DNA of 64,000 bases from an uncultured Treponemataceae bacterium. Lineage in GTDB: Bacteria; Spirochaetota; Spirochaetia; Treponematales; UBA12059. The notes below the pieces were generated by a model. That model did not search any database, had not been told where the DNA came from, and saw only the letters and a program-made list of their open reading frames with translations. This document shows positions 37,955 through 59,590 of this stretch, in pieces. The position numbers were made by a program, and so were the translations under genes. The first letter of the stretch is position 1. Each line of letters starts with the position of its first letter. Where the stretch lies: assembly GCA_964482955.1 (NCBI GenBank), contig CAYZZW010000001.1, forward strand, positions 95,780 to 159,779, in the 5' to 3' direction.

Positions 37955-38127
37955 GGTGCGGCGGACGATGTCGGAACGAATCAACCGAAGCGGTGGTGGT
38001 ATAGCTATCCACGCCGAATAGGCGAGAGTACTCGCAATATTCGGCGTGGATAGCTATACCACCACCCAGCGGTCGAATGCTGTACGTCATTGGGCGCCGG
38101 GTATCCCCGGTAATGCCGCATGACGGC
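37955..38127 (+). repeat. S-element copy C (structured repeat; candidate ncRNA or MITE)
   Basis: 5' GGTGCGGCGGACGATGTC.., a 29/29-bp hairpin at 37992..38066 (GGTGGTGGTATAGCTATCCACGCCGAATA / loop GGCGAGAGTACTCGCAA / perfect complement), and 3' ..GCCGCATGACGGC. Confidence 0.8.
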
Positions 38128-38344
38128 AGTGATGCCGGACGAGAAGCGGGGGCATGTATCCTGGCGGACTTTGGACTAGCTAAGACCCGGCTCATACGAT
38201 TCAAACAAGCTGGCGCCACCTTGACCCGGTAAGGCCGCACGCCTTGCCACGGGCCGATGGCCCGTGGCGGCGACGAGCTTCTTTCGTCGACCCCCTAAAG
38301 CGAAAGAATCGCCACAAGCTTTCGTTTACTAAGTACCGCCCGGA

Positions 38345-38432
38345 AGCTTCCTATCCCTAAATCCTTTCTCCCTCTTCCTTCGTGTTCTTCGTGTTCTTCG
38401 TGTTCTTCGTGTCCTTCGTGGTTGCCTTTCCG
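38345..38432 (+). repeat. H element, copy e (right arm; 9-bp unit CTTCGTGTT x3 plus variants)
   Basis: AGCTTCCTATCCCTAAATCC..CTCTTCCTTCGTGTTCTTCGTGTTCTTCGTGTTCTTCGTGTCCTTCGTGG. Confidence 0.8.
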
Positions 38433-38471
38433 CGGGACGCCCGGGAGCCGAAGACGTGGCGGCCGCGGGGG

Positions 38472-38501
38472 TTGATGCGGGGCGGGTGGGTGGGCGAGAA
38501 T
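38472..38501 (+). promoter_or_regulatory. leaderless-type promoter TTGATG-N18-GAGAAT-N7-ATG (marC-family gene)
   Basis: The -10 box ends 7 nt before ATG 38509 and there is no SD. Confidence 0.4.
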
Positions 38502-38508
38502 TGGGTGC

Positions 38509-39111
38509 ATGGAACAGACGTTCGCGTCGGCGACGATATTGCTCATCCTCATCACCGATCCCCTCGGAAACATCCCGCCGTTCATCTCGGCGCTCGGGCG
38601 CGTCAAACCGGAGCGGCGCGTGATCGTCGTGCTGCGCGAGTGCGCCATCGCGTTCGTCACGCTGACCGTGTTCATGCTCTTCGGGCGGAACATCCTCGAA
38701 ACCCTGCATTTGAGCCAGGACACGCTCAAGGTGGCCGGCGGCGTGATCCTCTTCCTCATCGCGATCAACATGATCTTCCCGGGTTCCGGCGCGAAGATCA
38801 GCGACGAATCGGGCGGCGAGCCGTTCATCGTGCCCATCGCGATCCCGCTCATCTCGGGTCCCTCCGCCATGGTCACGGTCATGCTCATCTCCGCGTCCGC
38901 TCCCGAGCGCATGCTCGAATGGTTCGGCGCGCTCACGATCTCGATCGCGGTGACCACGGTGGTCTTCCTCGCGTCGGGCAAGCTGCGCGACCTCCTCGGG
39001 CATCACGCCATCGCCGCGCTCGAACGCCTCATGGGCCTCGTCCTCACGGCGATCTCGATCGAGATGCTCCTCGGCGGCACCGCCAACTACATCAAGACCC
39101 TGATACGCTGA
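38509..39111 (+). CDS. MarC family membrane protein (UPF0056)
   Basis: A 200-aa ORF. The N-terminus ILLILITDPLGNIPPFIS and the six TM segments are typical of MarC. Confidence 0.8.
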   Translation: MEQTFASATILLILITDPLGNIPPFISALGRVKPERRVIVVLRECAIAFVTLTVFMLFGRNILETLHLSQDTLKVAGGVILFLIAINMIFPGSGAKISDESGGEPFIVPIAIPLISGPSAMVTVMLISASAPERMLEWFGALTISIAVTTVVFLASGKLRDLLGHHAIAALERLMGLVLTAISIEMLLGGTANYIKTLIR

Positions 39112-39115
39112 AGGT

Positions 39116-39225
39116 CCCGCGCCAGGGGGCGAAGCGTAAAGCCCGGAGTCCGCGCGGATACGCGCGGACGAGGACTTGCAGCGCAGCACCCGACCTCCGC
39201 GCGTTCCGCGCGGAGGTGGCGCCCA
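39116..39225 (-). repeat. K-element variant (extension only; the GTCAAAAATC hairpin is replaced by CCTCCGCGCG-ttc-CGCGCGGAGG)
   Basis: CGCGCCAGGGGGCGAAGCGTAAAGCCCGGAG, then TCCGCGCG-gatac-GCGCGGA, then GAGGACTTGCAGCGCAGCACCC. It starts 5 nt after the marC-family stop codon. Confidence 0.65.
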
Positions 39226-39261
39226 TAGAACGCGCTCTTCCCCCAATGGACAACGATCCCG

Positions 39262-40437
39262 TCACAGGTCGGGCGGCGGGCCTTGGCGCGAGCCGCCGGA
39301 GCCGTGGCCCGTTTCGGCGTTTTCGGGAAAACGCAGGACGAAGCTCGTGCCGCCGGGCGACGACACGGAAAACGTGCCGCGGAGGCCTTGCGCCAGCACC
39401 ATGAGGATCTTCATGCCGAGCCCGCTTTCCCCGTCGGGTTTCGCGGCCTCGCCGTCCGCGGTCCCGGACAGGCCGCGTCCGTTGTCGGCAACGCGAAGCA
39501 CGCAATCGCCGTCGGCCCTGCCGAGGGTCACCTTGACGCGAGGATCGTCCACGCCGTCGAAAGCGTGCTTCATCGCGTTGGTCACCGCCTCGTTGATGAA
39601 GAGCCCGATCGAGACCGCGGTGTCGATCGGCATGACGCCGAGCCCCGCTTCGATTTCGGCGGCGATGTGGACGCCCTTGCCGTTGTAGAACGAGGCGATT
39701 TCCTTGACGAGCGCGGGGACGTAGTCCGACGGGTCGACGCCGGGGGAGTGGGCGCTCCGGTAGAGGCGATCGTGGACGAGGGCGATGGCGAAGATCCTGC
39801 GCGTGAGCTCGTTGGCGGCCTCCACGAAGGCGGGATCGTCCGAGCGGTTCCGCTGGAGGCGCACGAGGCTGATGACGACGTTGAGGTTGTTCTTCACGCG
39901 GTGGTGGAGTTCGGCGAGGAGGAGTTCGCGATCGGCGACGGCCTTGCGGAGCGAAAGCTCGGTGACCGCGCGCTTGTCGATCTCCGCGTCGAGGCGCTTG
40001 AAATAGTCTCCGAGGAGTCCGAGCAGCACGCCGAGCGTGACGCCCGAGATTTCGGCGATGAGCTTGCTCGCCGGCGAGAATTCCGGGTGGCCGATCAGGG
40101 AAAAGAGCAACAGGTTGGCGGGCAGGCCCAGGATCCCGGCGACGGTGCCTCCGACGAGCCCGTAGGTGAGGGCGGCGACGGCGAGCGGCAGCATGACCGC
40201 GTAGTTCGACGAGACGGCGAGCGCGGGGCCGAACGCGAGGATGACGGCCGCGTACAGTCCCGCGGCGACGAGGTTGCTCGCCACGCGGTGCCCGAGGACG
40301 GCGAGGCGGAGAACCGACCCCGCGCGCTTTCCGACGAGTTCGCTGAACGCCTCGGTCCGCGTATCCGACGCCATGACGTGTACCTCCGCCCGTGCTCGCG
40401 CGGAACGGCGGGCGAAAAGTCGTCCGGCGCTGTTCAT
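39262..40437 (-). CDS. membrane sensor histidine kinase (HisKA_2 type)
   Basis: A 391-aa ORF; an alternative start is ATG 40374. It has N-terminal TM helices, the H-box LLAELHHRVKNNLNVVISLVRLQ, and a HATPase region (NEAVTNAMKHAF, DNGRGL, GLGMKI). Confidence 0.8.
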   Translation of the reverse strand: MNSAGRLFARRSARARAEVHVMASDTRTEAFSELVGKRAGSVLRLAVLGHRVASNLVAAGLYAAVILAFGPALAVSSNYAVMLPLAVAALTYGLVGGTVAGILGLPANLLLFSLIGHPEFSPASKLIAEISGVTLGVLLGLLGDYFKRLDAEIDKRAVTELSLRKAVADRELLLAELHHRVKNNLNVVISLVRLQRNRSDDPAFVEAANELTRRIFAIALVHDRLYRSAHSPGVDPSDYVPALVKEIASFYNGKGVHIAAEIEAGLGVMPIDTAVSIGLFINEAVTNAMKHAFDGVDDPRVKVTLGRADGDCVLRVADNGRGLSGTADGEAAKPDGESGLGMKILMVLAQGLRGTFSVSSPGGTSFVLRFPENAETGHGSGGSRQGPPPDL

Positions 40438-40541
40438 TCCGCGATGTTGTGCAGTATACTGTATACCGATGGTTCGCGCCGGTCCCGGCGCTGACCCGGT
40501 TCGGGGGTACGAACCGACGCCGTCCGTCGGAGCGGGAGCTG

Positions 40542-40910
40542 ATGTCGCAGAAATCCATCCTGATCGTGGAAGACGAGCCCATCGTCGGGCTCGAAATGGA
40601 AGAGACGCTCGTCCGTCTCGGGTACGCGGTGCCCGAGGTCGTGACGTCGGGCGACAAGGTCCTCGAAGCCGCGCTCCGGCACAAGCCGGACCTCATCGTC
40701 ATGGACATCCACCTGAACAGCTTCATCGACGGCATCGACGCCGCGGTCAGGCTCAAGCTGCTGTGGAAATGCCCGATCGTCTACGTCACCGCGTACCCGA
40801 ACGACCGCATCCGGGAGCGCGCGATGAAAACCTCGCCCGCAGCCTACCTCTTGAAGCCCCTCGACGAAAACGAACTCCGCGCCGCCATCGACGAAAGCCT
40901 GAGCGCCTGA
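40542..40910 (+). CDS. single-domain response regulator (CheY-like receiver)
   Basis: Based on ORF 40392..40910, with the start at ATG 40542 (MSQKSILIVEDEPIVG..DLIVMDIHL..YLLKPL). It is divergent from the HisKA_2 kinase gene. Confidence 0.85.
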   Translation: MSQKSILIVEDEPIVGLEMEETLVRLGYAVPEVVTSGDKVLEAALRHKPDLIVMDIHLNSFIDGIDAAVRLKLLWKCPIVYVTAYPNDRIRERAMKTSPAAYLLKPLDENELRAAIDESLSA

Positions 40911-40919
40911 AGCGCCGCC

Positions 40920-41750
40920 TCAAGCGGGCCGGAAGCGGCCCCGCGCAGCGATCTGTCCCGATCGCCTGAGTTCCGCCACGATCGCGCCGTCCGGAGTCGC
41001 GGCCGAGTACGCTTCGATATCGTCCCCCGACAGGATCTCCGCGCGGAACTCCACCGCCAGCCCGGCGAACATCCGGTCGAGACCGCGATGCGTCCGGGCG
41101 TCGCCTTCGGACCGCAGGTCCGCGGACTGAAAGTCAACGGACCGAAGGTCGACGGACTGAAAGTCAACGGACCGGAGGTCCGAGGCGTCCGACGCCGCGT
41201 CGGCGAGCCAGTCCACGATGTGCGCGTTGTTGACGTGTCCGTTGTGGTCGACATGGCGCGGCCGGGCGCGCAGGGCATAGCGTAACGCCGCCGATTCCGC
41301 GTCCGGCATGGAAAAATCGCGGTCCGCGACCGGACACGGTTCGGGGCACGACAGCCCCGGCGGCAGCACCTTTTCCGGCCGGACGGGACGCCGCGCCGCC
41401 ACATCGACGACGAGGTAGGCGTAGACCGCCCGCGCGAGCACGGAGCCGTCCTCGCGCTTCACGCGGAAACAGCGGAGCGCGAAGAGGCGCTCGAGACCGA
41501 TCGGCCAGGTTTCCACGAGAATCCGCTCGCCCTCGACGGGGCTTTCGTCCACGCGGACGTCCGTCTTCGAGAGCATCCAGGTCATCCCGTTTTCCATCAG
41601 GTGCTCGACGCCGACGCCGAGCGAGGTGGCGTGGTAGCCCGCGGCTTCCTGCAGGTAGTTCGACAGCGCGAAGGGGCGGATCGGTCCGCCGTAGCCGCAG
41701 TCGTAGCCGCGCACGTCGTACGGAACGAGGAGGGGTGTGACGTCGGGCAT
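40920..41750 (-). CDS. acyl-ACP thioesterase family protein with an internal tandem-repeat linker
   Basis: A 276-aa ORF with a double hotdog pattern (MTWMLSKTDVRV..ILVETWP; RPRHVDHNGHVNNAHIVDW). The in-frame repeat is SDLRSVDFQSVDLRSVDFQSADLRS. Confidence 0.65.
   Translation of the reverse strand: MPDVTPLLVPYDVRGYDCGYGGPIRPFALSNYLQEAAGYHATSLGVGVEHLMENGMTWMLSKTDVRVDESPVEGERILVETWPIGLERLFALRCFRVKREDGSVLARAVYAYLVVDVAARRPVRPEKVLPPGLSCPEPCPVADRDFSMPDAESAALRYALRARPRHVDHNGHVNNAHIVDWLADAASDASDLRSVDFQSVDLRSVDFQSADLRSEGDARTHRGLDRMFAGLAVEFRAEILSGDDIEAYSAATPDGAIVAELRRSGQIAARGRFRPA
41090..41185. repeat. in-frame 30-bp tandem repeat inside the acyl-ACP thioesterase CDS
   Basis: GGACTGAAAGTCAACGGACCGAAGGTCGAC occurs about 2.5 times. 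It encodes SVDFQSVDLR-type decapeptides on the minus strand. Confidence 0.75.
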
Positions 41751-41754
41751 GAGG

Positions 41755-42894
41755 TCAGTCCTTGCCGGTAAGGTACGCGTGCGCGTCGCGCAGGCGCTCG
41801 ACGATGGCGATGGTCTGCGGGCACTTCGAGAGGCATTCGCCGCAGGCGACGCAGCGGTCGGCTCCCGCGCCCTTGTCGGCGAACATCGCCTTGTACCATT
41901 TCGAGTTCGATTCGCGCGTGCCGAACATCTCGGAGGCGTTCCAGAGGTTGAAGGCTTCGGGGATGTTGACGCCGTTCGGGCAGGGCATGCAGTATGCGCA
42001 CCCGGTGCACGGTACCTTCACGCGCTCGCGGTAGATCGCGCGCGCGCGGTCGTAGACTTCCTTTTCCTTCGCGCCGATCATGTTCGCGCGCGCCGACGAG
42101 GCCACCGCGGCGTTTTCCATGATCTCGCGCGCGGAGCCCGTGCCCGACAGCGTCACGACGACTTCCTGCGGGTCGAGCGCGAAGCGGAGCGCCCACTCCA
42201 CCGGCATGCGCGGCGTCGGGTACGACGCGAAGGCCTCGCGCACCGGCATGGGCGGACTCACGAGAGCTCCGCCGCGGAGCGGTTCCATCACCACGACGCC
42301 GATCCCCTTCGAGCCCGCGTACTTGACGCCGTCGATGCCGGCCTGGTGCTCAGTGTCCACGTAGTTGTACTGGACCTGGCAGAAATCCCAGCGGTACGCG
42401 TCCACGATCTCCTTGAAGACCTTGTTCGACCAGTGGTAGGAAAAGCCCGCGTGGCCGATGCGGCCGTCTCGTTTTGCCTTCTCGAGAAATTCGAGCGCGC
42501 CGTTCCGCTTGACGTTTTCCCAGCGCCCCGCGTTGAGGGCGTGGAGGAGGTAGAAGTCGATGTGGTCGGTCTTGAGCTTCAAAAGCTGTTCGTCGAGGAA
42601 GCGGTCGAAATCTTCCGGTTTTTCCACGAGCCACACGGGCGACTTGGTCGCCAGGTACACCTTGTCGCGGAGGCCCAGCCGCGACACCGCGTCGCCGACG
42701 TAGGGCTCGCTCGCGCCGCCGTGGTAGGCGTACGCCGTGTCGAAGTAGTTGACGCCGCACTCGACGGCGGTCTTCACCATCTCGTCGGCGGCCGCGACGT
42801 CGATGGCGCCGTCTTTCTGGGGCAGGCGCATAAAACCGAGGCCGAGGGCCGAGACTTCGAGGTCCGGATCCGAGGGGAACGATCTGTACAGCAT
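41755..42894 (-). CDS. aldo/keto reductase with a C-terminal 4Fe-4S ferredoxin domain
   Basis: A 379-aa ORF. The AKR N-terminus has GLGFMRLP and DTAYAYHGG. The C-terminus has CTGCAYCMPCP and CVACGECLSKCP. Confidence 0.8.
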   Translation of the reverse strand: MLYRSFPSDPDLEVSALGLGFMRLPQKDGAIDVAAADEMVKTAVECGVNYFDTAYAYHGGASEPYVGDAVSRLGLRDKVYLATKSPVWLVEKPEDFDRFLDEQLLKLKTDHIDFYLLHALNAGRWENVKRNGALEFLEKAKRDGRIGHAGFSYHWSNKVFKEIVDAYRWDFCQVQYNYVDTEHQAGIDGVKYAGSKGIGVVVMEPLRGGALVSPPMPVREAFASYPTPRMPVEWALRFALDPQEVVVTLSGTGSAREIMENAAVASSARANMIGAKEKEVYDRARAIYRERVKVPCTGCAYCMPCPNGVNIPEAFNLWNASEMFGTRESNSKWYKAMFADKGAGADRCVACGECLSKCPQTIAIVERLRDAHAYLTGKD

Positions 42895-42936
42895 GGCGCC
42901 ATTATACGGCGCGGCCGGCTCTCCGTGAAGTGGGCG

Positions 42937-44577
42937 CTATTCCTCGACCGAGGAGGAGGTCCCGAGGGCGGCGCGGAGGTCTTCGACGCTCCGGCCGTTT
43001 TCCTCGCCGATGTCGCGCAGGCCGCCGAGGGCGCCGCTCATCGCCTCGAAGCAGGCCAGCGTGGCGCGGCAGCGCTCCATGACCGCCGACGAGGTCTTTT
43101 CGACCTCCCGGATGCTCTCGGACGAGCGCCCGATGGCCCCGCGCGACAGCGTCATGGCCTGCTTCGTCGGCTCGGAAAGCGAGGCGGCGCGCGTGGCCGC
43201 CGCCGCGATGTCGCCCGCGCCGAGCGAAATCTCCTCGACGCCGCCCAGGAGCTCGCCGATCATGCCCGCGACGTCCCGCGTCTCCGCCGCGATGCGCTTG
43301 AAGTACTTTTCCAGCCGGTCGTCCTCGGCCTCGATCTTCCCGATGCTCTCGCGCGTGTCCTTGAGCGTGTCGGCGATCACGCGCGAGCTGCGCGACGTCT
43401 CCTCGGCCAGCTTGCGGATCTGGTCCGCGACTACAGCAAAGCCGCGGCCCGCCACCCCCGCGTGCGCCGCCTCGATCGACGCGTTCATGCCGAGCAGGTT
43501 GGTGCGGTCGGCCACGTCGACGATGAAAGTCGACAGTTCGAGCATGCGGTCCGCGGAATCGAGGGCTTCCTGCACCGCGCGCCTGATCGAGGCGATTCGC
43601 CCCTCGCCGTCGCGGGCCAGGTCCGTGAGGCCGTCGACCGAATCGCGCTTTTCCTTCGTCCGCGAGCCGATGGTCCGGATGGACGCCGCCATCTGCTCGA
43701 TCGCGGCCGACACCGCGTCCACTTCCTTCGAATACCCGACGAGCGCCTCGGACACCGTGTCCTGGCCGCGCACCGCTTTGTCGTTGTCCGCCACCGAGCG
43801 GCCGAGCGCGGTCTCGAGCCCCGCCGCCCCCGTCTCGATGCCGCGGACCGCGTCCTCCGCGGAGCGGATCGCGTCCGTCGTGGCGCCGATGGACGACAGG
43901 AGCCGCTTGCCGATCGCGTCCGCCTGTTCGCGCACCCGCCCGACCGCGCGCTCCATGGTCTCGCGGCGGGTCCGCTCGTTCAGCGCGTCGCGCTCGACGC
44001 GCTCGACCAGCTTCACCTGGTTGGCAACGATGGAACGGCCGAAGAGACCGCCCGCGATGATCATGATCGCGCTCGTCACCAGCGACTGGATGTCGAGCAG
44101 GGTCGGGGGCAGTCCGGAGGGCCGGAGCGTGTCGAAGACATAGATGACGCCGATCGCGCCGAGGTTGAGCACCATGAGGACGAGAGGCTGAATGGGACGG
44201 GAGGAGATGAGCGCGGTCGTAATGAGGAGGAAACCGCCGAGCGTTCCGAAGACATAGGCCTCGTAGATGTTTTTGTACTCGTCGTACTTGATCGCCAGGA
44301 ACATGACCGCGAACAGGCCGTAAGCGAAAACGCTCGACGCCACGCGGTACAGCCCCGCGCGAAGGAGCCCGAGCACGACGGCGCAAAAACAGGCGAAACC
44401 CGCCAGCAGACCGGCCACCGCCACGGCACCCGTCAGTGCCATGACCGCCGCCAGCGCCACGGCGAGCGAACCGATAGAAAGCGTCACCGAGGCGAGCGTC
44501 CCGCTCTTCGAGCGGACGATCATGGACGCCGCGACGTACGGCTTCGTGAAATAGCTGACCAGGGGATTCGCTGCCAT
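42937..44577 (-). CDS. methyl-accepting chemotaxis protein with a polytopic membrane N-terminus
   Basis: A 546-aa ORF with about 6 TM segments. The MCP signalling domain follows ([33 protein letters not shown]). Confidence 0.85.
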
Positions 44578-51878: not shown

Positions 51879-52087
51879 TGCGTTCCTCCTGGTCTGGGCG
51901 TTGTAATGATAAACCGCCCGTTTTTCGGCGGCCGTGACGAGAAAATCCTGAAACTGAACCCCAGACCTCCATATAAGCACGGTTTCCGCGTATCGTCAAC
52001 CATGAGACGTCTCCGCGTGCCGCCAGACGGTTCGCCCTTCCGCCCTGCGGCTCAGATTACAACGAGCGGGCTTAAACCGAGAGAAGA

Positions 52088-52261
52088 ATGCGGCGGACGG
52101 GTGTCGAACCGGATCAACCCGGGTTTGGGGCATACAAGTACCCGTGACGAATAGGCGAGAGTACTCGCGATATTCGTCGCGGGTACTTGTATGCCCCAGC
52201 CGGCGGTCGCAACCGTTTCGCCATCGGGCGCGGCCTGACGCCAGTAAAGCCGCACGACGGC
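52088..52261 (+). repeat. S-element copy B
   Basis: ATGCGGCGGACGGGTGTC.., a hairpin at 52127..52197 (26/27 bp, loop GGCGAGAGTACTCGCGA), and ..GCCGCACGACGGC. Confidence 0.8.
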
Positions 52262-52323
52262 AAGCAGGCCACATCTCTGTAGTGCGGTTCCATCTTGCAC
52301 CAGGCTCCGGCCGGCATTAACCC

Positions 52324-52454
52324 GGTGTCTGACACCTTTTCGTCGGTGTCTGACACTTTCCCGCCGGGTGCCTGGCACCTTCTCGTCCGACCGGTGCCTG
52401 GCACCTGCTGCGGACTGGTGCCTGGCACCTTTACGTTCGGCCGGTGCCTGGCAG
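52324..52454. repeat. array of six P palindromes (2x GGTGTCTGACAC[C/T], 4x GGTGCCTGGCA[CC/G]) at 21-26 bp spacing
   Basis: The copies start at about 52324, 52345, 52367, 52393, 52417 and 52443. The array is intergenic, between S-element B and the stop codon of the PtsN-like gene. Confidence 0.85.
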
Positions 52455-53004: not shown

Positions 53005-53026
53005 GGCGCCCGAACCGCCGTCCAGC

Positions 53027-53554
53027 CTAAAAGGTGCGAAGTTCCATGCCGGGCCAGCGCGTTTCCAGCTCGGCGGAAATACCGGCGTCGAACGAGCGCG
53101 ACAGCGCGACCGGCAGCAGGAACGTGAAGTTCCGCGTCATGGTGTAGGTGCCGATGTACGTAATGGTGCCCGGCTCGACTATCAGGTTTTCTTTCGGGAT
53201 GTCCGGATATACGCAATCCGCCAAGATGGTTTTCTTGCCGTCCGGGCGGTAGTGGTACATGTAAAACGCGAATATTTCGTATTCGCCGGCTTCCAGCTCG
53301 AACAAGCCCTCGAGCGTGTCCCCTGACAGAACGTACTGGAACACCTTGCCGTCTGAGACGCGGTGCAATTCCACCATGAGCCGGTCCGCCGTCTTTCCGG
53401 TCTCGCCGGTCTGCCGCGCGTACAGGTAGGCTTTGGCCGGATCGACGTCGGGCTGACTACGCGTGGCGTACACACGTTTGGACATGGACACGCAGGAAGC
53501 AAGGATGAGCGCTGTCGCTACAGCCGCGATGATGTATTTGGTTACGATGCGCAC
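53027..53554 (-). CDS. hypothetical lipoprotein
   Basis: A 175-aa ORF with a GTG start after a GGAG SD. It has a lipobox (ALILASC). Confidence 0.6.
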   Translation of the reverse strand: MRIVTKYIIAAVATALILASCVSMSKRVYATRSQPDVDPAKAYLYARQTGETGKTADRLMVELHRVSDGKVFQYVLSGDTLEGLFELEAGEYEIFAFYMYHYRPDGKKTILADCVYPDIPKENLIVEPGTITYIGTYTMTRNFTFLLPVALSRSFDAGISAELETRWPGMELRTF

Positions 53555-53657
53555 GATACGACTCCGTTTGAAACACAGTCTTGTGCCGACTTACGCCGGC
53601 CCGTCCAGCATGGCGGGCGGGCGAAGGCGTGTCAATCAGCGTCAAACGCGCCCGGAT

Positions 53658-53685
53658 AAAAAAGCGCCCCCGTTGCCGGGGGCGC
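53658..53685 (-). terminator. intrinsic terminator after the porin gene
   Basis: On the minus strand: GCGCCCCCG-gcaa-CGGGGGCGC followed by T6. Confidence 0.8.
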
Positions 53686-53708
53686 CCACTATCAGGAACT
53701 AAGCGAGC

Positions 53709-55205
53709 TTAGTACTCGATGGTGCAGGAGACGGTGAAGAGACCCTTGTCGACGTCCTTGTGGAAGGGCGTGACGAAGAGGTATTCGTCGTCGGCGAGGG
53801 AGCCGGCTTCGAACTGGACGTTGAACGTCGTCTTGGCGATGACGTTGATGTCAGCACCGACCACGATGTGGAGACCGTTGTCCGTGTCGACGTCCTTGGC
53901 GCCGTAGAGACCGTAGTCGAAACCGGCGTACGGCTTCACGGTCTTGCCTTCTTCAATGGCGTACTCGTATTCGGCGTAAGCGCCGAGCATAACGGGCATG
54001 CCTTCCATGGCGGGGTTTTCCTCGTCAAGGAGGTGAAGGGCGTTCACGTAGGCGGTGGCGCCGAGACCGGGGACAAAGCCTTCGGCCGTGTCTTCGGAAA
54101 CCTTGAACCCGAGGTTGAGAACGGAAGTGTCCTTGTCCTGGGTGTGGTAGATGTCGGCGCCGACGGTGTTCTCGGTGGCCGGAACGAAGTACACGCTGAG
54201 GGTAGCGCTGTCCTTGTTCGCCATCGTGTAGGTGGCGGCGAGGCTGATGTCCATGACGGGGTCGAGCTCGCCGGCGATCACGACGTCGAGACCGGCGCCG
54301 ATTTCCACGCCTTCCATCGGCTTCACGGTGATGCCGAGGCCAGCGCCCTTGTTGGCGCCTTCGGCGGCGTCCCAGAGGTCGGCGAAGACGCCGATCACGA
54401 CTTCGACCATCTCCATCGGGGTGATGGTGACATCGGCGCCGATCATGTACTTGGCATCGACGTTGTTCGTACCAGCGGGATCACCGGGGGTGGCGGGGGT
54501 AACGACACCGTACACCTCACCGACAGCGATACCACCATCACCGGCCGCCCACGGAGCGTGGGTGGCGGTGTTGATGTAGCCGGCCGCGATGGCGTCAGCC
54601 TCAGGAATGGCGGCCGTAGCGACAACCCAGCTCACGGACGCGGGGGTGTCGGTGCCGGCAGCGGTGGCGCTGTCATAGGAACCATCGGAGCCGATGTTGA
54701 GGTTGAACTTCACCATCTCGGTGTCGTAACCGACGGAGATGCCGCCCACGGTGCTGGTGGCGCCGGTTTCGGACTGCCACGAAGCGTCTTCCCACGCGTC
54801 CACGCTGACCGGCTCGAACATGGTGGCCATGTTGTAGCCGAAGCTGGGCTCGGAGTAGATGCCGACCCAGAGGGCGCCGGCGATGATCTTGGCGGTGATG
54901 GACGGCGCGGTGTACTTAACGGTGCCGGCGGCGATGTTCTCGGTCTTGCCCGTCATGATGGCCTTGAAACCGTCGAACTCGATCCAGCCGTACACGCCCT
55001 CGAGACCTTCAGTGGCCTTGGTGGTCTTGGCGACGAGCGGGATGGTCAGGGCGAACGACGCGTCGTTCAGGAAGCCATGCGAATCATCGTTGAGGTTGTA
55101 ACCCCAAGTAACCGAGGCGTCTCCCTCGATGGTCCACGTCTCGCCTTCGGCGAAGGCGATACCGGTCAAGCAGAGAGCAAGAAGCAGCACGATAGCTTTC
55201 TTCAT
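53709..55205 (-). CDS. abundant outer-membrane beta-barrel protein / porin (Msp/Tpr-like by pattern)
   Basis: Based on ORF 53709..55301, with the start at ATG 55205 (MKKAIVLLLALCLTGIAFA-EGE), 7 nt after AGGAGGA. It has alternating Gly/aromatic strands and a terminal ..SCTIEY. A near-consensus promoter (TTGACA-N17-TATACT) and a strong terminator flank it. Confidence 0.65.
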   Translation of the reverse strand: MKKAIVLLLALCLTGIAFAEGETWTIEGDASVTWGYNLNDDSHGFLNDASFALTIPLVAKTTKATEGLEGVYGWIEFDGFKAIMTGKTENIAAGTVKYTAPSITAKIIAGALWVGIYSEPSFGYNMATMFEPVSVDAWEDASWQSETGATSTVGGISVGYDTEMVKFNLNIGSDGSYDSATAAGTDTPASVSWVVATAAIPEADAIAAGYINTATHAPWAAGDGGIAVGEVYGVVTPATPGDPAGTNNVDAKYMIGADVTITPMEMVEVVIGVFADLWDAAEGANKGAGLGITVKPMEGVEIGAGLDVVIAGELDPVMDISLAATYTMANKDSATLSVYFVPATENTVGADIYHTQDKDTSVLNLGFKVSEDTAEGFVPGLGATAYVNALHLLDEENPAMEGMPVMLGAYAEYEYAIEEGKTVKPYAGFDYGLYGAKDVDTDNGLHIVVGADINVIAKTTFNVQFEAGSLADDEYLFVTPFHKDVDKGLFTVSCTIEY

Positions 55206-55272
55206 TGCTATCCTCCTTACGAAAATACGGGGAAGAACCGACGGTTCGTTGTGTCCCCTTCCATTTTCCAGG

Positions 55273-55301
55273 AGTATAGAACTCGTAAAAATCGATGTCA
55301 A
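55273..55301 (-). promoter_or_regulatory. near-consensus promoter TTGACA-N17-TATACT of the porin gene
   Basis: Read on the minus strand within an AT-rich island. A ~60-nt leader and an AGGAGGA SD follow. Confidence 0.7.
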
Positions 55302-55462
55302 GGATTATTTGTAACCTTCGGCGGCCAGGATTTTTTGATTCTTTCGTCTTGCATGCGGCGCATTTCGTTATCTGACAGAACATTACTAAAACCGGCCCAA
55401 TTTGCGGCACTTTGACATAATTAAAATAAATGTAAAAGAACAGAATAAATCGGTACACGAGC

Positions 55463-55501
55463 GGCGGGACTTGTTCACCCCGTGAACAAGTCCCGCCTTT
55501 T
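55463..55501 (+). terminator. plus-oriented terminator-like hairpin with no annotated plus-strand gene upstream
   Basis: GGCGGGACTTGTTCAC-ccc-GTGAACAAGTCCCGCC followed by TTTT on the plus strand only. Confidence 0.45.
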
Positions 55502-55538
55502 CATCGATGCCGCGGGTCGGGAGCTCCGCTCCAAGTCC

Positions 55539-56738
55539 TTATGCTTTGGACCACTCGCGGACGGCGCGGGCGAAGGCTTCCGCGCTGTTAGTTATGGAAG
55601 ATTCCGAAACGCAGTAGGCCATGCGGAACCAGCCGGGGCAGCCGAAGCCGACGCCGGGGACGGCCAGGATGTTGTATTTCTTGAGATGCATGACGAAGTC
55701 GACGTCGTCCACGCTCGGGCCGCCCGCGGGCACCTGGCAGAAAAGGTAAAAGGCGCCTTCGGGCTTCGTGAAGGCGATGCCGGCCTTCCGGACGATGTCC
55801 GAGAGGAGGTCGCGGCGGCGACAGTAGCTCGTGGTATCCGCCATGCAGCCTTCCAGCTTCACGACGACCCGCTGCATGAGGGCGGGGGCGTTCACGAAGC
55901 CGAGGGTGCGGTTGGACATGGCCAGGCCGTCCAGGAGGAGCTTGCGGTCCGCGCAGGCGGGGGAAACGGCCAGATAGCCGATGCGTTCGCCGGGCAGGGA
56001 GAGGCTTTTCGAGTAGCTGTACGCCACGACGGTTTCCGGGTACGCGTCCATGATGGGCGGGGCGACGGCGCCGTCGTACACGAGTTCGCGGTAGGGTTCG
56101 TCGACGACCAGATAAGGAAGGCGGCCGCAGGCTTGGCCGTGTTTCAGGAGGGCCGCGGCGATGGCTTCGATGTCCGTACGGCTGTAGATGCGGCCAGTGG
56201 GGTTGTTCGGGGTGTTGACGATGAGGGCGGCGGTGCGCGGGGTGAGGGCGCGCGCGATGGCGTCCACGTCCGGGGAAAAGTCGGGCTTGGTGGCGACGCC
56301 GACGAGGTGGCCGCCGTGGTTCTTGATGTACGGCCCGTATTCCGCGAAGTAGGGCTTCAGGACGATGACTTCATCCATGGGGTTGAGGATGGTCCGCAGG
56401 AGGACGTTGAGGGCGCCGGCGGCCCCCACCGTGACGATGATGCCGTCGGCTTTCAAGTCCACGGCGTGGTCTTTGGAGGTCTTGCGGGCGGCGGATTCGC
56501 GCATGGGCATGAAGCCGGCGTTGGACAGGTAGCCGTGGAGTCCTTTTTCGGGGGAGGACGCCAGCTCGAGAAGGGCTTTTTTGAACTCGGCGGGAGGTTC
56601 CACGTCCGGGTTGCCCAAGGAAAAGTCGTAGACTTTGTCCGGTCCGAACTGGGCGCGGAGCTTGGCGCCTTCTTCGAACATCTTGCGGATCCACGAGGAT
56701 TTTTCGAGATCGGTGCGTATGGAGTCGGCTACCGGCAT
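55539..56738 (-). CDS. pyridoxal phosphate-dependent aminotransferase (class I, AspC/AlaT-like)
   Basis: Based on ORF 55539..57074, with the start at ATG 56738 (MPVADSIRTDLEKSSWIRKMFEEG), after a GGAGGA SD. It has NPNNPTG-type (NTPNNPTGR) and SYSKSLSLPGERIGY motifs. Confidence 0.85.
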   Translation of the reverse strand: MPVADSIRTDLEKSSWIRKMFEEGAKLRAQFGPDKVYDFSLGNPDVEPPAEFKKALLELASSPEKGLHGYLSNAGFMPMRESAARKTSKDHAVDLKADGIIVTVGAAGALNVLLRTILNPMDEVIVLKPYFAEYGPYIKNHGGHLVGVATKPDFSPDVDAIARALTPRTAALIVNTPNNPTGRIYSRTDIEAIAAALLKHGQACGRLPYLVVDEPYRELVYDGAVAPPIMDAYPETVVAYSYSKSLSLPGERIGYLAVSPACADRKLLLDGLAMSNRTLGFVNAPALMQRVVVKLEGCMADTTSYCRRRDLLSDIVRKAGIAFTKPEGAFYLFCQVPAGGPSVDDVDFVMHLKKYNILAVPGVGFGCPGWFRMAYCVSESSITNSAEAFARAVREWSKA

Positions 56739-56890
56739 GGGTTCCTCCGTCGAACGAGTTTCTACCATATATATGCGTGGTATTCGGTCGATCAAACCGA
56801 CCGAATGTCGGGGCGGCGGCCGGCGACGCGGAAGTGTACCACGGCTTTTGGTATCAAGCCACTGCGATTCGCGTAACCGGAGCGTAGTTC

Positions 56891-57127
56891 GAGGCGATTC
56901 GGGGGTGTGCGGCGGACGAGTGTCGGACCGGATGGACCGGGGCGTGGGGCATACCAGTACCCATGACGAATAGGCGAGAGTACTCGCAATATTCGCCATG
57001 GGTACTGGTATGCCCCACCCGACGGTCGCATGCGGTGCGCCATCGGGAGCCGGATGGCCCCGGAAACGCCGCACGACGGCTCGCAGATCGAACGAATCGC
57101 GGTGGGCTTGGTTGGGCTATGGACCGA
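56891..57127 (+). repeat. S-element copy A (longest form, with an outer GCGATTCG/CGAATCGC pairing)
   Basis: A hairpin at 56946..57016 (26/27 bp) has the same apical module. GTGCGGCG at 56907 is complementary to CGCCGCAC at ~57067. Confidence 0.8.
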
Positions 57128-57145
57128 CCAGTAAGACACCCCACC

Positions 57146-57184
57146 GGTGCCTGGCACCCTCTGGCCGACCCGGTGCCTGGCACC
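57146..57184. repeat. two P palindromes (GGTGCCTGGCACC) 26 bp apart
   Basis: They lie directly to the right of S-element A and upstream of the Rpn gene. Confidence 0.8.
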
Positions 57185-57238
57185 ACGTGCCCATGCGCCA
57201 ATGCCCTCCTCCGCCGTTACTCAGGCGGAGGCACCACC

Positions 57239-58213
57239 ATGTCACAGTCTTTCAAGTTGCTCGATGTGTTCGTCCGATGGCTGTTCTCGCGGCCGGGCAA
57301 CGAGCAGATCCTGCTCGCGTTCCTGAACGCCGTCATGCGCGACGCGAAGGAGACGGAACTCGCCGCGGTCAAGGTCTTGAACCCTTTCAATCCCGGCGAA
57401 TACAAGGGCGAAAAGGAGTTCATCCTGGACGTCGCCGCGAAGGATTCGCACGGCCGTCTCTTCGACTTCGAAATCCAGTCGTACCGCGAGGAGGATTACG
57501 CCAAGCGGGCGCTCGCCTACTGGGCGCGGCTCCATGCGAGCCAGCTCCGGAAAGGCGACGACTACCTCGACGTCCATCCGACCGTCGGCGTCCACCTGTG
57601 CGACTACAACAACCATCCCGAGATCGCGGAAGGTCACCTGATCGTCGACGCCACCTTTCGCGGCCATCCCGACATTCTCGCCTCGGACGACTTCCAGCTC
57701 CATTTCGTCGAGCTGCCGAAATACTACGACCGTTCGGGCAAGCGAGGGCTGTCGGACTTGGAAAAGTGGGCCGTATGGTTTACTTTTGAACCGGAGAAGG
57801 ACGACACCATGAGCGACCGCCCCTGGCTCCCGGAAGACCTCCGGGACGACCCCCAGTTCATCGATCTCGAAAAGCAATACCGCGAGTTCTGCACGGACGA
57901 AGAGCTCCGCTACATCGCCGAAAGCCGTTTCCGCTTCATCACCGACGTCGCGAACGAAAAGTCGTGGGCCCGGCGCCATGGTTTCGCCGAGGGCAAGGAA
58001 CAAGGTCTTGCTGTAGGAAAAGCTGAAGGCAGGGTCGAAGGCAGGGTCGAAGGCAGGGCTGAAGGCAGGGCTGAAGGCAAAGCCGAAGGGAAAATCGAAG
58101 GTTTGGAAGAAGGCAAATTGGAAGTCGCACGCAAGCTCAAAGCCGCGGGCATGTCCATAGAGCAGATTGTCGAGTTTACCGGACTTGAGCCAACCGCGAT
58201 TCAAGGGCTTTGA
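57239..58213 (+). CDS. Rpn family recombination-promoting nuclease / putative transposase (PD-(D/E)XK; T. denticola-type family)
   Basis: Based on ORF 56963..58213, with the start at ATG 57239 after GGAGG. The N-terminus is FKLLDVFVRWLFSRPGNEQILLAFLNAV. The nuclease core is ILDVAAKDSHGRLFDFEIQ. The C-terminal repeat EGRVEGRVEGRAEGRAEGKAEGKIEGLEEGKLEVARKLK is typical of this family. The GC content looks lower than in neighbouring genes. Confidence 0.75.
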   Translation: MSQSFKLLDVFVRWLFSRPGNEQILLAFLNAVMRDAKETELAAVKVLNPFNPGEYKGEKEFILDVAAKDSHGRLFDFEIQSYREEDYAKRALAYWARLHASQLRKGDDYLDVHPTVGVHLCDYNNHPEIAEGHLIVDATFRGHPDILASDDFQLHFVELPKYYDRSGKRGLSDLEKWAVWFTFEPEKDDTMSDRPWLPEDLRDDPQFIDLEKQYREFCTDEELRYIAESRFRFITDVANEKSWARRHGFAEGKEQGLAVGKAEGRVEGRVEGRAEGRAEGKAEGKIEGLEEGKLEVARKLKAAGMSIEQIVEFTGLEPTAIQGL

Positions 58214-58221
58214 TCTTCGTT

Positions 58222-58590
58222 GAGGCGATTCGGAGGTGTACGGCGGACGAGTGTCGGACCGGATGGACCGGGGCGTGGGGCATACCAGTACCCATGACGA
58301 ATAGGCGAGAGTACTCGCAAAGCAACGTCGCGGGCAGCAATTCGAAGCACTGAAAACCCTCGTGACGCTTTCCGGAAAGGTGCGGCGATTTTATTAGGAC
58401 CGTATAGGTCGGGTCCTGTCGCTGAAAAAAGCATGGTATCATTCGGAGTACCTCACGATACCATGCTTTTTTCACGCCACCCGACCCGACGCATTCGATC
58501 CTACAAGCTGGCGCCGGATGGCCTCAGAAACGCCGCACGACGGCTCGGAGGCCAACGAATTGCGGCGGGCTTTATTCGACTATGGATCGG
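58222..58590 (+). repeat. S-element D: a truncated unit D1 (58222..58320) joined to a divergent complete unit D2 (58374..58590)
   Basis: D1 is nearly identical to the left half of copy A and stops exactly after the apical module GGCGAGAGTACTCGCAA. D2 has GGAAAGGTGCGGCGA.., a different hairpin, and the conserved right flank GCCGGATGGCC..CGCCGCACGACGGC. Confidence 0.75.
58425..58472. terminator. bidirectional terminator-like hairpin (the hairpin of divergent S-element unit D2)
   Basis: AAAAAAGCATGGTATC-16 nt loop-GATACCATGCTTTTTT. Confidence 0.55.
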
Positions 58591-58597
58591 CCCGAGG

Positions 58598-58712
58598 CAG
58601 CCTATCTTTAACCCTCTTCACCTCTTCTCCGTGATCTCCGACTTTCTCCGTGTTTTCGCGGTGAGTCTTGCACGAAGGGGCATCTTCGTGCCGAGGCCGT
58701 GAAGGCCACGGT
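58598..58712. repeat. H element, copy f (mixed CTCCGTG / CACGAAG arms)
   Basis: CTCTTCTCCGTGATCTCCGACTTTCTCCGTG..GCACGAAGGGGCATCTTCGTGCC..GTGAAGGCCACGG. Confidence 0.65.
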
Positions 58713-58740
58713 TGCGGAAGAGGCGGGGGCGTGCGACAAT
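58712..58740 (+). promoter_or_regulatory. leaderless-type promoter TTGCGG-N17-GACAAT-N7-ATG (DUF4230-like gene)
   Basis: The -10 box ends 7 nt before ATG 58748. Confidence 0.45.
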
Positions 58741-58747
58741 CGGGCGT

Positions 58748-59392
58748 ATGAAGGTTTCGAGCGTCGTGGGAATCGTGGCGTCGGCGGCCGCGGTCGTGGC
58801 GGTAGCGGTCGCCGTGATCGCGGTGGCGGTTACGAAAAAAGCGCCGTCGCCGGAAGTCGTGAAGCGCGAATTCACGGCGTACGTGGAAACGTTGGCGCCC
58901 GCCGGGTGGCTCGTCCTGGTCGAGGGGCGCGAGCGCCTGGTCGTGCGGGATACCGTGAAGGGCCAGCTGTTCGGGAACACGATGCTCGGGGAGTTCCTCA
59001 AGATACGGTCGGACGCGGTCATCGAAGTCGAAGCGTGGGCGGACACGCTGTACGGCGTGCGGCTCGAGCCTGCCGCTTGGTCGTTCGCGGTCGACCCGCG
59101 ACCGAAGCGGCTGTCCGTATCGGCGCCGGCGCTCGAAGCCCGTACGCCGGCCATCCTCACCGAAACGATCACCGTCCGGCTCGTCGACAAATCGATACTC
59201 GTGAACGAGGCGAAGGTCGCGGAATCGATGAAAGCGGCGCTCACCGCGCGTTTCATCGAATACGCCGCAAGCCGCGCGGGCGCGGCGGATACCCAGACGA
59301 AGGCCACGGACGGTCTGCGGAATATCGTAATGGGCTTTTTGAAGAAAGCGGACCTTGTCGCGGAAGCGGTGGACGTGACGTTCGGGCGATAG
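58748..59392 (+). CDS. membrane-anchored hypothetical protein (DUF4230-like)
   Basis: Based on ORF 58712..59392, with the start at ATG 58748 (MKVSSVVGIVASAAAVVAVAVAVIAVAV TM). The leaderless-type promoter TTGCGG-N17-GACAAT-N7-ATG lies upstream. The family name is tentative. Confidence 0.55.
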   Translation: MKVSSVVGIVASAAAVVAVAVAVIAVAVTKKAPSPEVVKREFTAYVETLAPAGWLVLVEGRERLVVRDTVKGQLFGNTMLGEFLKIRSDAVIEVEAWADTLYGVRLEPAAWSFAVDPRPKRLSVSAPALEARTPAILTETITVRLVDKSILVNEAKVAESMKAALTARFIEYAASRAGAADTQTKATDGLRNIVMGFLKKADLVAEAVDVTFGR

Positions 59393-59590
59393 GAAAGGTG
59401 CGGCGAACTATATCGAAGCGGATTGACCGGGACCTGGGGCATACAAGCACCCGCTACAAATAGGCGAGAGTACTCGCAATATTTGTAGTGGGTACTTGTA
59501 TGCCCCACCCGGCTGGTTCATTCGGTTCGTCATCGGGAGCCGGATGTCCCCAGTAACGACGCACGACGGCACGCAGGCCGCCGAATCGCG
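59392..59590 (+). repeat. S-element copy E
   Basis: It starts at the last base of the TAG stop of the upstream gene. The hairpin at 59436..59506 pairs 25/27 bp and has the same apical module. The 3' end is ..GACGCACGACGGC..CGAATCGCG. Confidence 0.8.

What the first reader, a model, noticed from the sequence alone, without database searches (positions are those of the whole stretch)
37955..59590. A family of ~170-240 nt multi-helix repeats with compensatory stem changes around an invariant GCGAGAGTACTCGC apical module (6 units in 22 kb)
The units are C (37955), B (52088), A (56891), D1/D2 (58222) and E (59392). They share one architecture. A 5' GTGCGGCG is complementary to a 3' CGCCGCAC(GACGGC). 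Small hairpins change sequence but stay paired: GAC-gagt-GTC in A becomes CGA-actata-TCG in E, and CCGG-N5-CCGG occurs in several versions. A central 27-29 bp hairpin has an apex that is always AATA-GGCGAGAGTACTCGC(A/G)A-TATT, which is itself a GCGAG/CTCGC mini-stem. The long stem of C (GGTGGTGGTATAGCTATCCACGCC) shares almost nothing with that of A (GGGGCATACCAGTACCCATGAC), yet both pair (29/29 and 26/27). B and E show further compensated differences. A conserved apex with conserved closing helices and freely covarying stems is the signature of a selected structure in RNA or ssDNA. Decaying MITE copies would not show it. I do not recognise the element as any RNA family or repeat class I know, and there is no transposase, RT or integrase next to any copy.
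Basis: partly seen in the sequence, partly recalled or inferred. Interest (0 to 1): 0.72.

Follow-up and report, generated by a model that had tools for sequence, protein, structure and literature searches.

The report
Lineage-specific palindromic intergenic repeat family
A spirochaete genome carries several copies of a ~245-base hairpin-forming intergenic repeat with an invariant loop motif; it behaves like a young, recombining selfish DNA repeat rather than a proven new RNA gene, and only its central hairpin shows paired changes.

Summary
The repeat family is real. GCGAGAGTACTCGC occurs five times, always on the + strand. There are four intact units (C, B, A, E), a variant (D2) and two decayed copies (D1, C2). 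The central 29-bp hairpin is 98% paired, and 16 of its 34 pairs change on both sides. The 25-nt apex is 96-100% identical, against 69-83% for the scaffold.

The multi-helix model is not supported. The closing helix, the small hairpins and the outer rod pairs show no double-sided change and are 75-91% paired.

No Rfam family matches. The apex has only chance hits in genome, metagenome and viral collections. Unit E is missing from the same intergenic spacer in two related spirochaete assemblies. In a strain about 1% diverged, both arms of the unit A hairpin are replaced.

An Rpn-family PD-(D/E)XK gene, annotated as a putative transposase, lies between A and D. The published work I read argues that Rpn proteins are defence nucleases, not transposases.

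Best reading (0.5): a lineage-restricted REPIN/MITE-like palindromic DNA repeat. Its apex is a protein recognition site, and its stem stays paired through whole-hairpin gene conversion, palindrome-correcting template switching, or selection on a folded single strand. A structured RNA is not excluded (0.2). Interest is moderate.

The parts
37934..38186 (+). Unit C: intact, with a divergent and perfectly paired central stem. Core 37956-38128, central hairpin 37993-38065, apex 38022-38035.
   Evidence: (189.8 bits)
38176..38270 (+). C2: decayed remnant, the right-hand part of a D2-type unit, lying directly after unit C.
   Evidence: (family D8)
52066..52318 (+). Unit B: intact. Core 52088-52262, central hairpin 52126-52198, apex 52155-52168. 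The apex variant is ...CGCGATATT.
   Evidence: (194.4 bits)
56888..57135 (+). Unit A: intact. Core 56907-57081, central hairpin 56944-57018, apex 56974-56987. The outer pairing is GCGATTCG (56893) with CGAATCGC (57097).
   Evidence: (205.1 bits)
57239..58213 (+). rpn gene: Rpn-family PD-(D/E)XK nuclease, annotated as a 'putative transposase', with 4-aa EGRx repeats. It lies between A and D1. It is probably a hitch-hiking defence gene rather than the mobilising enzyme.
   Evidence: PMC10400941
58219..58335 (+). D1: decayed unit. Its left arm plus apex is 98% identical to A-left over 99 nt. Of the right arm only CGTCGCGGG survives.
   Evidence: family D1; 28 bits
58362..58593 (+). D2: variant unit with the same 5' and 3' scaffold. 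Its central hairpin is replaced by a terminator-like A6-stem-T6 hairpin (58425-58472) whose loop keeps GAGTAC.
   Evidence: (70.6 bits)
59376..59640 (+). Unit E: intact. Core 59398-59571, central hairpin 59435-59507, apex 59464-59477. Its 5' flank supplies the last codons and the stop codon of the upstream gene. The unit is absent from the same spacer in relatives.
   Evidence: (197.6 bits)

Best explanation
The units are copies of a lineage-restricted, non-autonomous palindromic DNA repeat, a REPIN/BIME/MITE-like 'foldback' element of about 245 bp, in the chromosome of an uncultured high-G+C spirochaete.

Each copy has three parts. The first is a moderately conserved scaffold carrying short inverted termini (GTGCGGCG ... 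CGCCGCAC). The second is a central hairpin of about 29 bp. The third is an invariant 25-nt apex (AATA-G-GCGAG-AGTA-CTCGC-AA-TATT).

Inferred mechanism: the apex is the recognition site of a trans-acting protein that is not encoded in this window, and this protein sees the element when one strand folds back on itself, for example during replication or recombination. The stem only has to pair. Its sequence therefore drifts or is exchanged, and pairing is restored in three possible ways: en-bloc gene conversion of the whole hairpin from other copies, palindrome-correcting template switching, and/or selection on the folded strand.

What is shown: the family exists, the apex is constrained, changes in the central stem are paired, decayed copies exist, unit E is absent from orthologous sites in relatives, and the A hairpin differs on both arms between close strains.

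What is inferred: mobility, the single-stranded DNA form, and the existence and nature of the protein partner.

The rpn gene between A and D is most simply a passenger that arrived or moved by recombination between repeat copies.
For: (1) Repeat behaviour. The window holds four intact copies, one variant and two decayed copies, partly in tandem (C-C2, D1-D2) and all intergenic.
(2) Restricted distribution. The 18-nt apex gives only unrelated chance hits in one genome for each of 185,579 bacterial and archaeal species, in the JGI metagenomes and in IMG/VR. There is no blastn match in plasmids or phages. The only relative found is a strain of the same species (L014).
(3) Presence varies by lineage. 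The spacer between gene10 and bactofilin is 493 nt with unit E here. It is 50 nt and 79 nt without any unit in two relatives with 64% and 69% protein identity, and the bactofilin promoter-like sequence is retained in all three. The covariance model finds no copy in 20 kb of the syntenic relative.
(4) Hairpin swap. The background divergence to the sister strain is about 1% (L023 is 98.7% identical, and L014 is about 99% identical over 57037-57940). Yet the unit A hairpin differs at 12 positions in about 75 nt, on both arms, and remains paired. Stepwise compensation cannot do this in that time, whereas en-bloc replacement can.
(5) Constraint pattern. The apex is 96-100% identical and the scaffold 69-83%. 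The A, B and E stems are 72-88% identical, similar to the scaffold. Only the C stem is an outlier, at 40-52%.
(6) Covariation is confined to the one long inverted repeat. The helices that would make the unit more than a palindrome show none.
(7) No strand bias. Mismatches are 2 G.T and 2 A.C, and the ssDNA fold energies of the two strands are equal, -38.1 against -39.4 kcal/mol.
(8) Precedent. REPINs show compensatory changes and tandem clusters (PMC3116915). REP dimers can have structured spacers, and CGTC-type REPs have been reported in Spirochaetes (PMC3733652).
(9) No Rfam match at gathering or at permissive thresholds.
Against: No target-site duplication or sharp insertion boundary could be defined.

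No Y1/HUH/DDE transposase, RAYT, integrase or reverse transcriptase lies in the 64 kb. The rest of the genome could not be read.

The genome-wide copy number is unknown.

The conservation pattern is the reverse of REPINs, which have conserved stems and a variable spacer. Here the apex is conserved and the stem is free.

All copies share one orientation, and four of the five unit loci sit upstream of, and co-oriented with, a + strand gene. That would also fit a transcribed element.

The + strand RNA folds are 4-8 kcal/mol more stable than the - strand folds for the cores.

The origin of the completely different but perfect C stem is not explained by any observed donor.
Confidence: 0.5

Rival explanations
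1. A family of structured non-coding RNAs (small RNA genes or cis-acting UTR elements) transcribed from the + strand. The apex stem-loop would be a protein- or RNA-binding module and the long helix a selected structure.
For: The hairpin is very stable (z = -9 to -11). The apex is invariant. The central stem changes in pairs. All copies are on the + strand, and four of the five unit loci are co-oriented with the next downstream gene. The + strand folds are slightly better than the - strand folds. No known family matches, so it would be new.
Against: There is no promoter-like site and, except in D2, no terminator-like tail around the units. No helix other than the palindrome covaries. Mismatches show no G.U preference. 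Decayed copies exist. Unit E is absent in relatives with 64-69% protein identity, and the apex is absent from all public collections searched. Unit B lies between two - strand genes, where read-through transcription would produce the other strand. The whole-hairpin swap between close strains is a DNA recombination signature.
Confidence: 0.2
2. Folded single-stranded-DNA recombination sites (attC-like or att-like) that bracket exchangeable single-gene cassettes such as rpn. The invariant apex would be the crossover or recognition core.
For: The layout is A-rpn-D-gene10-E, with units in one orientation flanking single genes. A 102-nt direct repeat (A-left plus apex, and D1-left plus apex, 98% identical) brackets rpn, which is the footprint of a circle carrying one unit that recombined with a resident unit. 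The junction between the 99%-identical and the diverged sequence in the strain comparison falls inside unit A. rpn genes are reported to move by recombination or hitch-hiking, not by their own transposition (PMC10400941). A synteny break with the relative lies exactly here.
Against: No integrase or recombinase is in the window. There are no RYYYAAC/GTTRRRY cores. In attC sites the conserved part is the base and the apex varies, which is the opposite of what is seen here. gene10 is conserved next to bactofilin in relatives that lack units, so it is not a cassette. Units B and C flank ordinary chromosomal genes.
Confidence: 0.12
3. A double-stranded DNA binding site. The 27-bp quasi-palindrome GAATAGGCGAGAGTACTCGCAATATTC would be an operator or architectural site for a dimeric protein, embedded in a repeat that has been duplicated locally. 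The long stems would be by-products of palindrome-perfecting mutation.
For: The apex is the only strongly constrained part. It is nearly dyad-symmetric (GCGAG N4 CTCGC with AATA/TATT). The units lie in promoter-containing spacers. The genome is rich in other short intergenic palindromes and tandem motifs.
Against: An operator needs no 29-bp perfectly paired extension or 245-nt scaffold. The asymmetric centre (AGTA, and G opposite AA) is conserved in one orientation in every copy. Unit E is an insertion relative to other lineages rather than part of a conserved regulon.
Confidence: 0.08
4. Retron-like or other reverse-transcriptase template RNAs (msr-msd type). These have paired 5' and 3' ends, small 5' hairpins and one long hairpin.
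For: The overall layout resembles a retron ncRNA, with a terminal inverted pair, a long variable hairpin and a size of 170-250 nt. This resemblance is from my own knowledge of retrons.
Against: No reverse transcriptase lies in the window, and none is next to any copy. The terminal helix shows no covariation. There are several tandem and decayed copies. No Rfam match was found.
Confidence: 0.03

Closest known systems
REPINs / REP dimers (BIME-type palindromic intergenic repeats mobilised by RAYT/TnpA-REP)
   Same: Both are intergenic, multi-copy and lineage-specific. The whole unit folds into one long hairpin. Part of the hairpin needs only to pair and shows compensatory changes. Tandem clusters and decayed singletons occur. 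Both have short inverted termini. A CGTC lies next to the right terminus on the - strand (GCCGTC-GTGCGGCG). (PMC3116915; PMC3733652.)
   Different: The unit is two to three times longer, about 245 nt against about 100 nt. The conserved part is the apex and the variable part is the stem, the reverse of REPINs. No RAYT was seen, although the rest of the genome was not readable. All copies have one orientation. Copy number is unknown.
Bacterial MITEs that are imperfect palindromes over their whole length (ERIC, Correia/NEMIS, RPE, RUP)
   Same: The size range of 100-250 bp is similar. Both have inverted termini, an intergenic location, a hairpin fold when single-stranded or transcribed, presence or absence between lineages, and insertion at gene ends. 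Unit E supplies the stop codon of gene10.
   Different: No target-site duplication and no parent insertion sequence were found. MITE centres are usually not the best-paired or most conserved part. The hairpin stem is replaced while the scaffold is kept.
Integron attC sites
   Same: In both, structure rather than stem sequence is conserved, the copies share an orientation, and they flank single genes.
   Different: There is no IntI gene and no RYYYAAC/GTTRRRY cores. In attC the conserved region is at the base and here it is at the apex. The units are far longer and branched. The flanked genes include non-cassette core genes.
Quasipalindrome template-switch correction and arm-to-arm gene conversion of inverted repeats
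   Same: This offers a selection-free route to 'compensated' changes and perfect stems (PMC7202029).
   Different: It is a mutational process, not an element class. It explains pairing but not the invariant apex or the spread of copies.
rpn (Rpn/YhgA-like, TIGR01784) toxin-antitoxin defence genes
   Same: The gene between A and D scores well above the thresholds of both family models, PF12784 (119.4 bits against a 27.4-bit cut-off) and TIGR01784 (128.8 bits against 52.1). Its 4-aa repeat region varies between strains, as described (PMC10400941).
   Different: [quoted passage not shown] Here rpn sits between two copies of a structured repeat. The closest other homologue (50% identity, L015) has no unit in its short flanks.

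Membership tests
Any Rfam 15 RNA family | Covariance-model score at or above the family's gathering threshold | tested here: not met
   The only hits in the window are two tRNAs. In permissive mode, the units give only chance hairpin hits such as miRNA precursors, with E-values of 0.02-3 and scores far below gathering.
REPIN / REP | Two inverted conserved REP modules that pair into one hairpin around a spacer that needs only to pair | tested here: inconclusive
   The whole unit folds as a rod with inverted GTGCGGCG/CGCCGCAC termini. However, the conserved element is the apex and the variable element is the stem. The outer pairs are only 75-91% paired.
REPIN / REP | GTAG or CGTC tetranucleotide tag at one end of the palindrome | tested here: inconclusive
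   CGCACGACGGC is present at the 3' end of all intact units, which gives GCCGTCGTGCG on the - strand. The stem and loop dimensions of CGTC REPs (8-9 bp, 4-5 nt) are not matched.
REPIN / REP | A RAYT (Y1 transposase) gene in the genome flanked by the same repeat, and tens to hundreds of copies | not testable with these tools
   Only 64 kb of the genome is readable. No Y1 transposase is in the window.
MITE | Terminal inverted repeats | tested here: met
   GTGCGGCG / CGCCGCAC, plus the outer GCGATTCG / CGAATCGC in A.
MITE | Target-site duplication flanking each copy | tested here: inconclusive
   No consistent direct repeat is seen at the alignable boundaries. Only unit E shows GTTCGG...GTTCAG. 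The boundaries themselves are uncertain.
MITE | Empty orthologous sites in related genomes | tested here: met
   Unit E is absent between gene10 and bactofilin in L016 and L018. These relatives are distant, and the extra 440 nt here also holds other repeats.
Integron attC | R''/R' cores (RYYYAAC ... GTTRRRY), an IntI gene and attI nearby | tested here: not met
   No such cores lie at the unit ends (read directly). No integrase is in the window.
Retron msr-msd | Adjacent reverse transcriptase gene | tested here: not met
   No RVT-family hit in any scanned ORF.
Intrinsic terminator | G+C-rich hairpin followed by a U/T run | tested here: not met
   The scan finds only the apex mini-stem of unit E, which is followed by AATATTTGTA. 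No T run follows the long stems. Only D2's substitute hairpin is flanked by A6 and T6.

The most novel reading that the evidence does not exclude
The units are a new kind of apex-addressed hairpin element. A protein would recognise the invariant GCGAG-AGTA-CTCGC loop module on a folded single strand (DNA or RNA). The freely exchangeable 25-bp stem would carry copy-specific information, such as a target or partner-specifying sequence, or a self-priming fold-back that regenerates the second arm at each copying. Under this reading, the hairpin swaps between strains and the capture of the rpn defence gene would be outcomes of an active, previously undescribed recombination or mobilisation system.
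Probability: 0.12. Interest if true: 0.75.

Novelty: new variant of a known kind. Interest (0 to 1): 0.38.

Why it matters
If the main reading holds, this is one more lineage-specific palindromic repeat, with two instructive features.

First, it is a worked example in which 'covariation around a conserved loop' arises in repeat DNA. Between near-identical strains it arises by replacement of the whole hairpin, so it is a caution against reading such signals as evidence for an RNA.

Second, an rpn defence gene sits between two copies of the repeat, at a synteny break. rpn genes are reported to lack flanking repeats and to move by unknown hitch-hiking, so this gives a concrete and testable vehicle.

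If the novel reading holds, the invariant apex would identify the recognition site of an unknown hairpin-binding recombinase or nuclease.

Tried and rejected
- Exact scans for the 18-nt apex in genome contigs, metagenome contigs and viral contigs gave only unrelated chance matches, checked by eye.
- blastn of unit A against plasmids and phages found nothing.
- Rfam at gathering and at permissive thresholds found nothing relevant.
- I tried to link the units to Rpn. The 50%-identical homologue (L015) and a 31% homologue from another MAG (L024) have no unit. Rpn as the mobilising enzyme is rejected as unlikely on this result and on PMC10400941.
- I tried to obtain more copies through neighbouring proteins. 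All 90% clusters of the flanking genes are singletons. Logan and ENA contigs of the same species are short and break inside the hairpins.
- I looked for an integrase, reverse transcriptase or transposase among about 40 ORFs of the window. None was found except rpn. PADLOC gave no hit.
- Small ORFs in the units, as in type I toxin-antitoxin systems, are not conserved because the stems vary (inspection).
- I considered attC, retron, IS200/IS605-PATE, protelomerase target, CsrA-sponge and IHF-site readings. Each fails on a defining feature, as set out in the membership table and the report.
- The C stem has no second match in the window that could be a target or a donor.


Full report
**What is there**

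The 14-mer GCGAGAGTACTCGC occurs five times in the window. All five are exact and on the + strand, at 38022, 52155, 56974, 58305 and 59464. Shuffles expect 1.2 matches at up to two mismatches.

Around these sites lie four intact, alignable units: C, B, A and E. Their pairwise scaffold identity is 69-83%. A covariance model built from them scores the four at 190-205 bits. It scores D2 at 71 bits and D1 at 28 bits, and nothing else in the 64 kb exceeds 15 bits.

Homology starts about 20 nt before GTGCGGCG and runs about 55 nt past CGCACGACGGC. In A the two flanks pair with each other (GCGATTCG with CGAATCGC), so a unit is about 245 nt, roughly 56888-57135 for A.

D1 is not a clean half-unit. After the apex it keeps CGTCGCGGG, the first nine bases of a right arm, and then loses the rest. 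D2 has the family scaffold, but its central hairpin is replaced by an A6-stem-T6 hairpin whose loop still contains GAGTAC. A further decayed D2-type right end (C2, 38176-38270) follows unit C directly.

**Is the structure real?**

The central hairpin is far more stable than chance. As RNA the whole units give z = -9 to -11. As ssDNA the 75-nt hairpins fold at -33 to -40 kcal/mol, with z = -12 to -15.

On the model-guided alignment of five sequences, 98.1% of central-hairpin cells are paired and 16 of 34 pairs change on both sides. No shuffle out of 500 reaches this, and slid controls give 0-1 such pairs.

That is where the support ends:
- The GTGCGGCG/CGCCGCAC helix has no double-sided change and is 90.6% paired.
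- The GAC/GTC and CCGG/CCGG hairpins and the 3' CCGG hairpin have none either, and are 75-85% paired.
- The 'compensation' quoted for unit E needs a different register.
- The alternative rod-like pairing of the outer arms also has no double-sided change, and eleven of its pairs depart only by broken cells.

Most of the covariation comes from one copy, C. Its stem is 40-52% identical to the others while its scaffold is 71-83% identical. The stems of A, B and E are 72-88% identical, which is no more diverged than their scaffolds.

The clearest sign of constraint is the 25-nt apex, at 96-100% identity.

The four non-Watson-Crick cells in the central stems are two G.T and two A.C on the + strand. 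The two strands fold equally well as ssDNA. As RNA the + strand cores are 4-8 kcal/mol better. This is at most a weak strand signal.

**Context**

The window comes from an uncultured high-G+C spirochaete. It has an Msp-type porin, and its relatives are named Spirochaetes bacterium.

The genes around the units are ordinary chromosomal genes: a GGDEF protein, MarC, a 2-hydroxyacid dehydrogenase, PTS EIIA, an aminotransferase, bactofilin and chemoreceptors. None of the roughly 40 ORFs scanned is an integrase, a reverse transcriptase or a classical transposase.

It is an Rpn-family PD-(D/E)XK nuclease (PF12784, E = 2.6e-34; TIGR01784, E = 3.3e-37). According to PMC10400941:
- the authors consider it highly unlikely that they function as transposases;
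- they encode a toxic nuclease with an intragenic antitoxin and a hypervariable 4-aa repeat;
- they probably move by recombination or by hitch-hiking.

The gene here has EGRV/EGRA/EGKA repeats.

**Relatives and evolution**

The 18-nt apex has only unrelated chance matches in one genome for each of 185,579 bacterial and archaeal species, in the JGI metagenomes and in IMG/VR. Plasmids and phages give no match.

One 1.4-kb ENA contig (L014) carries the same layout: the right half of unit A, the two GGTGCCTGGCACC palindromes, rpn, D1, and the start of D2. It comes from a sister strain. An ENA contig from a neighbouring accession is 98.7% identical over marC, and L014 is about 99% identical to the window from 57037 to 57940.

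Against that background of about 1% divergence, three parts differ sharply:
- The unit A hairpin differs at 12 positions in about 75 nt, on both arms, and still pairs.
- The rpn repeat and C-terminal region differs strongly, as expected for RpnS.
- D1/D2 are about 88% identical, and the D1 apex carries a mutation (GCGAGCGTACTCGC).

Replacing a whole hairpin within so little time is a recombination event, not stepwise compensation. The L014 stem combines states seen in B and C.

In two more distant relatives (64% and 69% identity in gene10), the spacer between gene10 and bactofilin is 50 nt and 79 nt and holds no unit. Here it is 493 nt and holds unit E plus another repeat. The promoter-like TTGNAC...CCGTACTATC is kept in all three.

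The 5' flank of unit E supplies the last codons and the stop codon of gene10. Synteny with the relative holds downstream of gene10 and breaks just upstream, where A, rpn and D sit.

A-left plus apex and D1-left plus apex form a 98%-identical direct repeat of about 100 nt that brackets rpn.

**Interpretation**

The family shows these properties together:
- lineage restriction;
- intergenic tandem and decayed copies;
- absence from orthologous spacers;
- rapid exchange between copies;
- covariation confined to the one long inverted repeat;
- no strand-specific mismatch bias.

These are the properties of a palindromic DNA repeat of the REPIN/BIME/MITE kind. In the REPIN precedent, compensatory changes in the part of the hairpin that only needs to pair are 'common' in elements regarded as mobile DNA (PMC3116915). 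REP dimers with structured spacers, and CGTC-type REPs in Spirochaetes, are documented (PMC3733652). Quasipalindrome template switching offers a selection-free way to perfect stems (PMC7202029).

I therefore read the units as a new variant of that kind (confidence 0.5). The invariant apex would be the recognition site of an unidentified protein that acts on the folded strand.

What does not fit neatly:
- The conservation pattern is the reverse of REPINs, with a conserved apex and a free stem.
- The units are large.
- All copies share one orientation.
- No target-site duplication was found.
- No mobilising gene is visible, although the rest of the genome could not be read.

A transcribed structured RNA remains possible (0.2). 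So does an att-like recombination site that brackets rpn (0.12). A duplex operator (0.08) and a retron-like RNA (0.03) are less likely.

**Verdict**

It is wrong in its claim of several covarying helices and in its claim that no transposase-annotated gene is adjacent.

The inference that such a pattern excludes a mobile repeat is not sound.

Interest is moderate. This is an undescribed, narrowly distributed repeat family with an unusual conservation pattern and a suggestive link to the movement of an rpn defence gene.

Noticed in passing
window 10282-10375, 52324-52454, 57146-57184: 13-nt perfect palindromes, GGTGCCTGGCACC and GGTGTCTGACACC, occur in arrays with a period of about 25 nt. There are 24 pattern matches against 0.75 expected. 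Two arrays lie just 3' of units B and A, and a third stands alone. The array next to A is identical in strain L014.
   Followed up: partly
window 25877-25914, 28737-28873, 34181-34306, 38378-38420, 59768-59801: A 9-nt tandem motif, CTTCGTG(K)(Y)C, occurs on both strands with 16 matches against 0.2 expected. It lies in intergenic spacers, including those downstream of units C and E. It is a separate abundant repeat and is not tied to the units.
   Followed up: partly
window 12584-12622, 28113-28151, 30740-30778: Repeated terminator-like hairpins of the form GTCAAAAATC...GATTTTTGAC. The last two sit within a 76-nt repeat that is 83% identical (28081 and 30708).
   Followed up: no
window 25967-26049 and 27907-27989: An 83-nt direct repeat, 92% identical, brackets the sodium:solute symporter gene (26303-27862).
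   Followed up: no
window 57239-58213 (rpn), repeats about 58010-58110: The Rpn-family gene carries tandem 4-aa repeats (EGRV, EGRA, EGKA, ...). Their number and sequence differ from the sister strain L014, while the N-terminal nuclease domain is about 99% identical. This matches the published hypervariable RpnS antitoxin region.
   Followed up: partly
window about 56800-58745, compared with L016 9400-10000: Gene order matches Spirochaetes MAG GCA_026398615.1 downstream of gene10 (bactofilin, TPR, radical SAM). It breaks immediately upstream, exactly where units A and D and rpn lie.
   Followed up: partly
L011 1-299, compared with window 59440-59738: One Logan contig of the same organism joins the CTTCGTG repeat upstream of bactofilin to unrelated sequence that carries a signal-peptide gene fragment. 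It is either a strain rearrangement at the repeat or an assembly chimera.
   Followed up: no
L014 ends; L020-L022 ends (window 58465 and 59521): Short-read contigs from several samples start or stop inside the central hairpins of A, D2 and E. These palindromes break assemblies, so copies are probably under-represented in metagenome assemblies.
   Followed up: partly
window 13837-17127 (-), 1824-3638 (-): Two long ORFs with high third-position G+C (1096 aa and 604 aa) have no Pfam match at E <= 1e-5.
   Followed up: no
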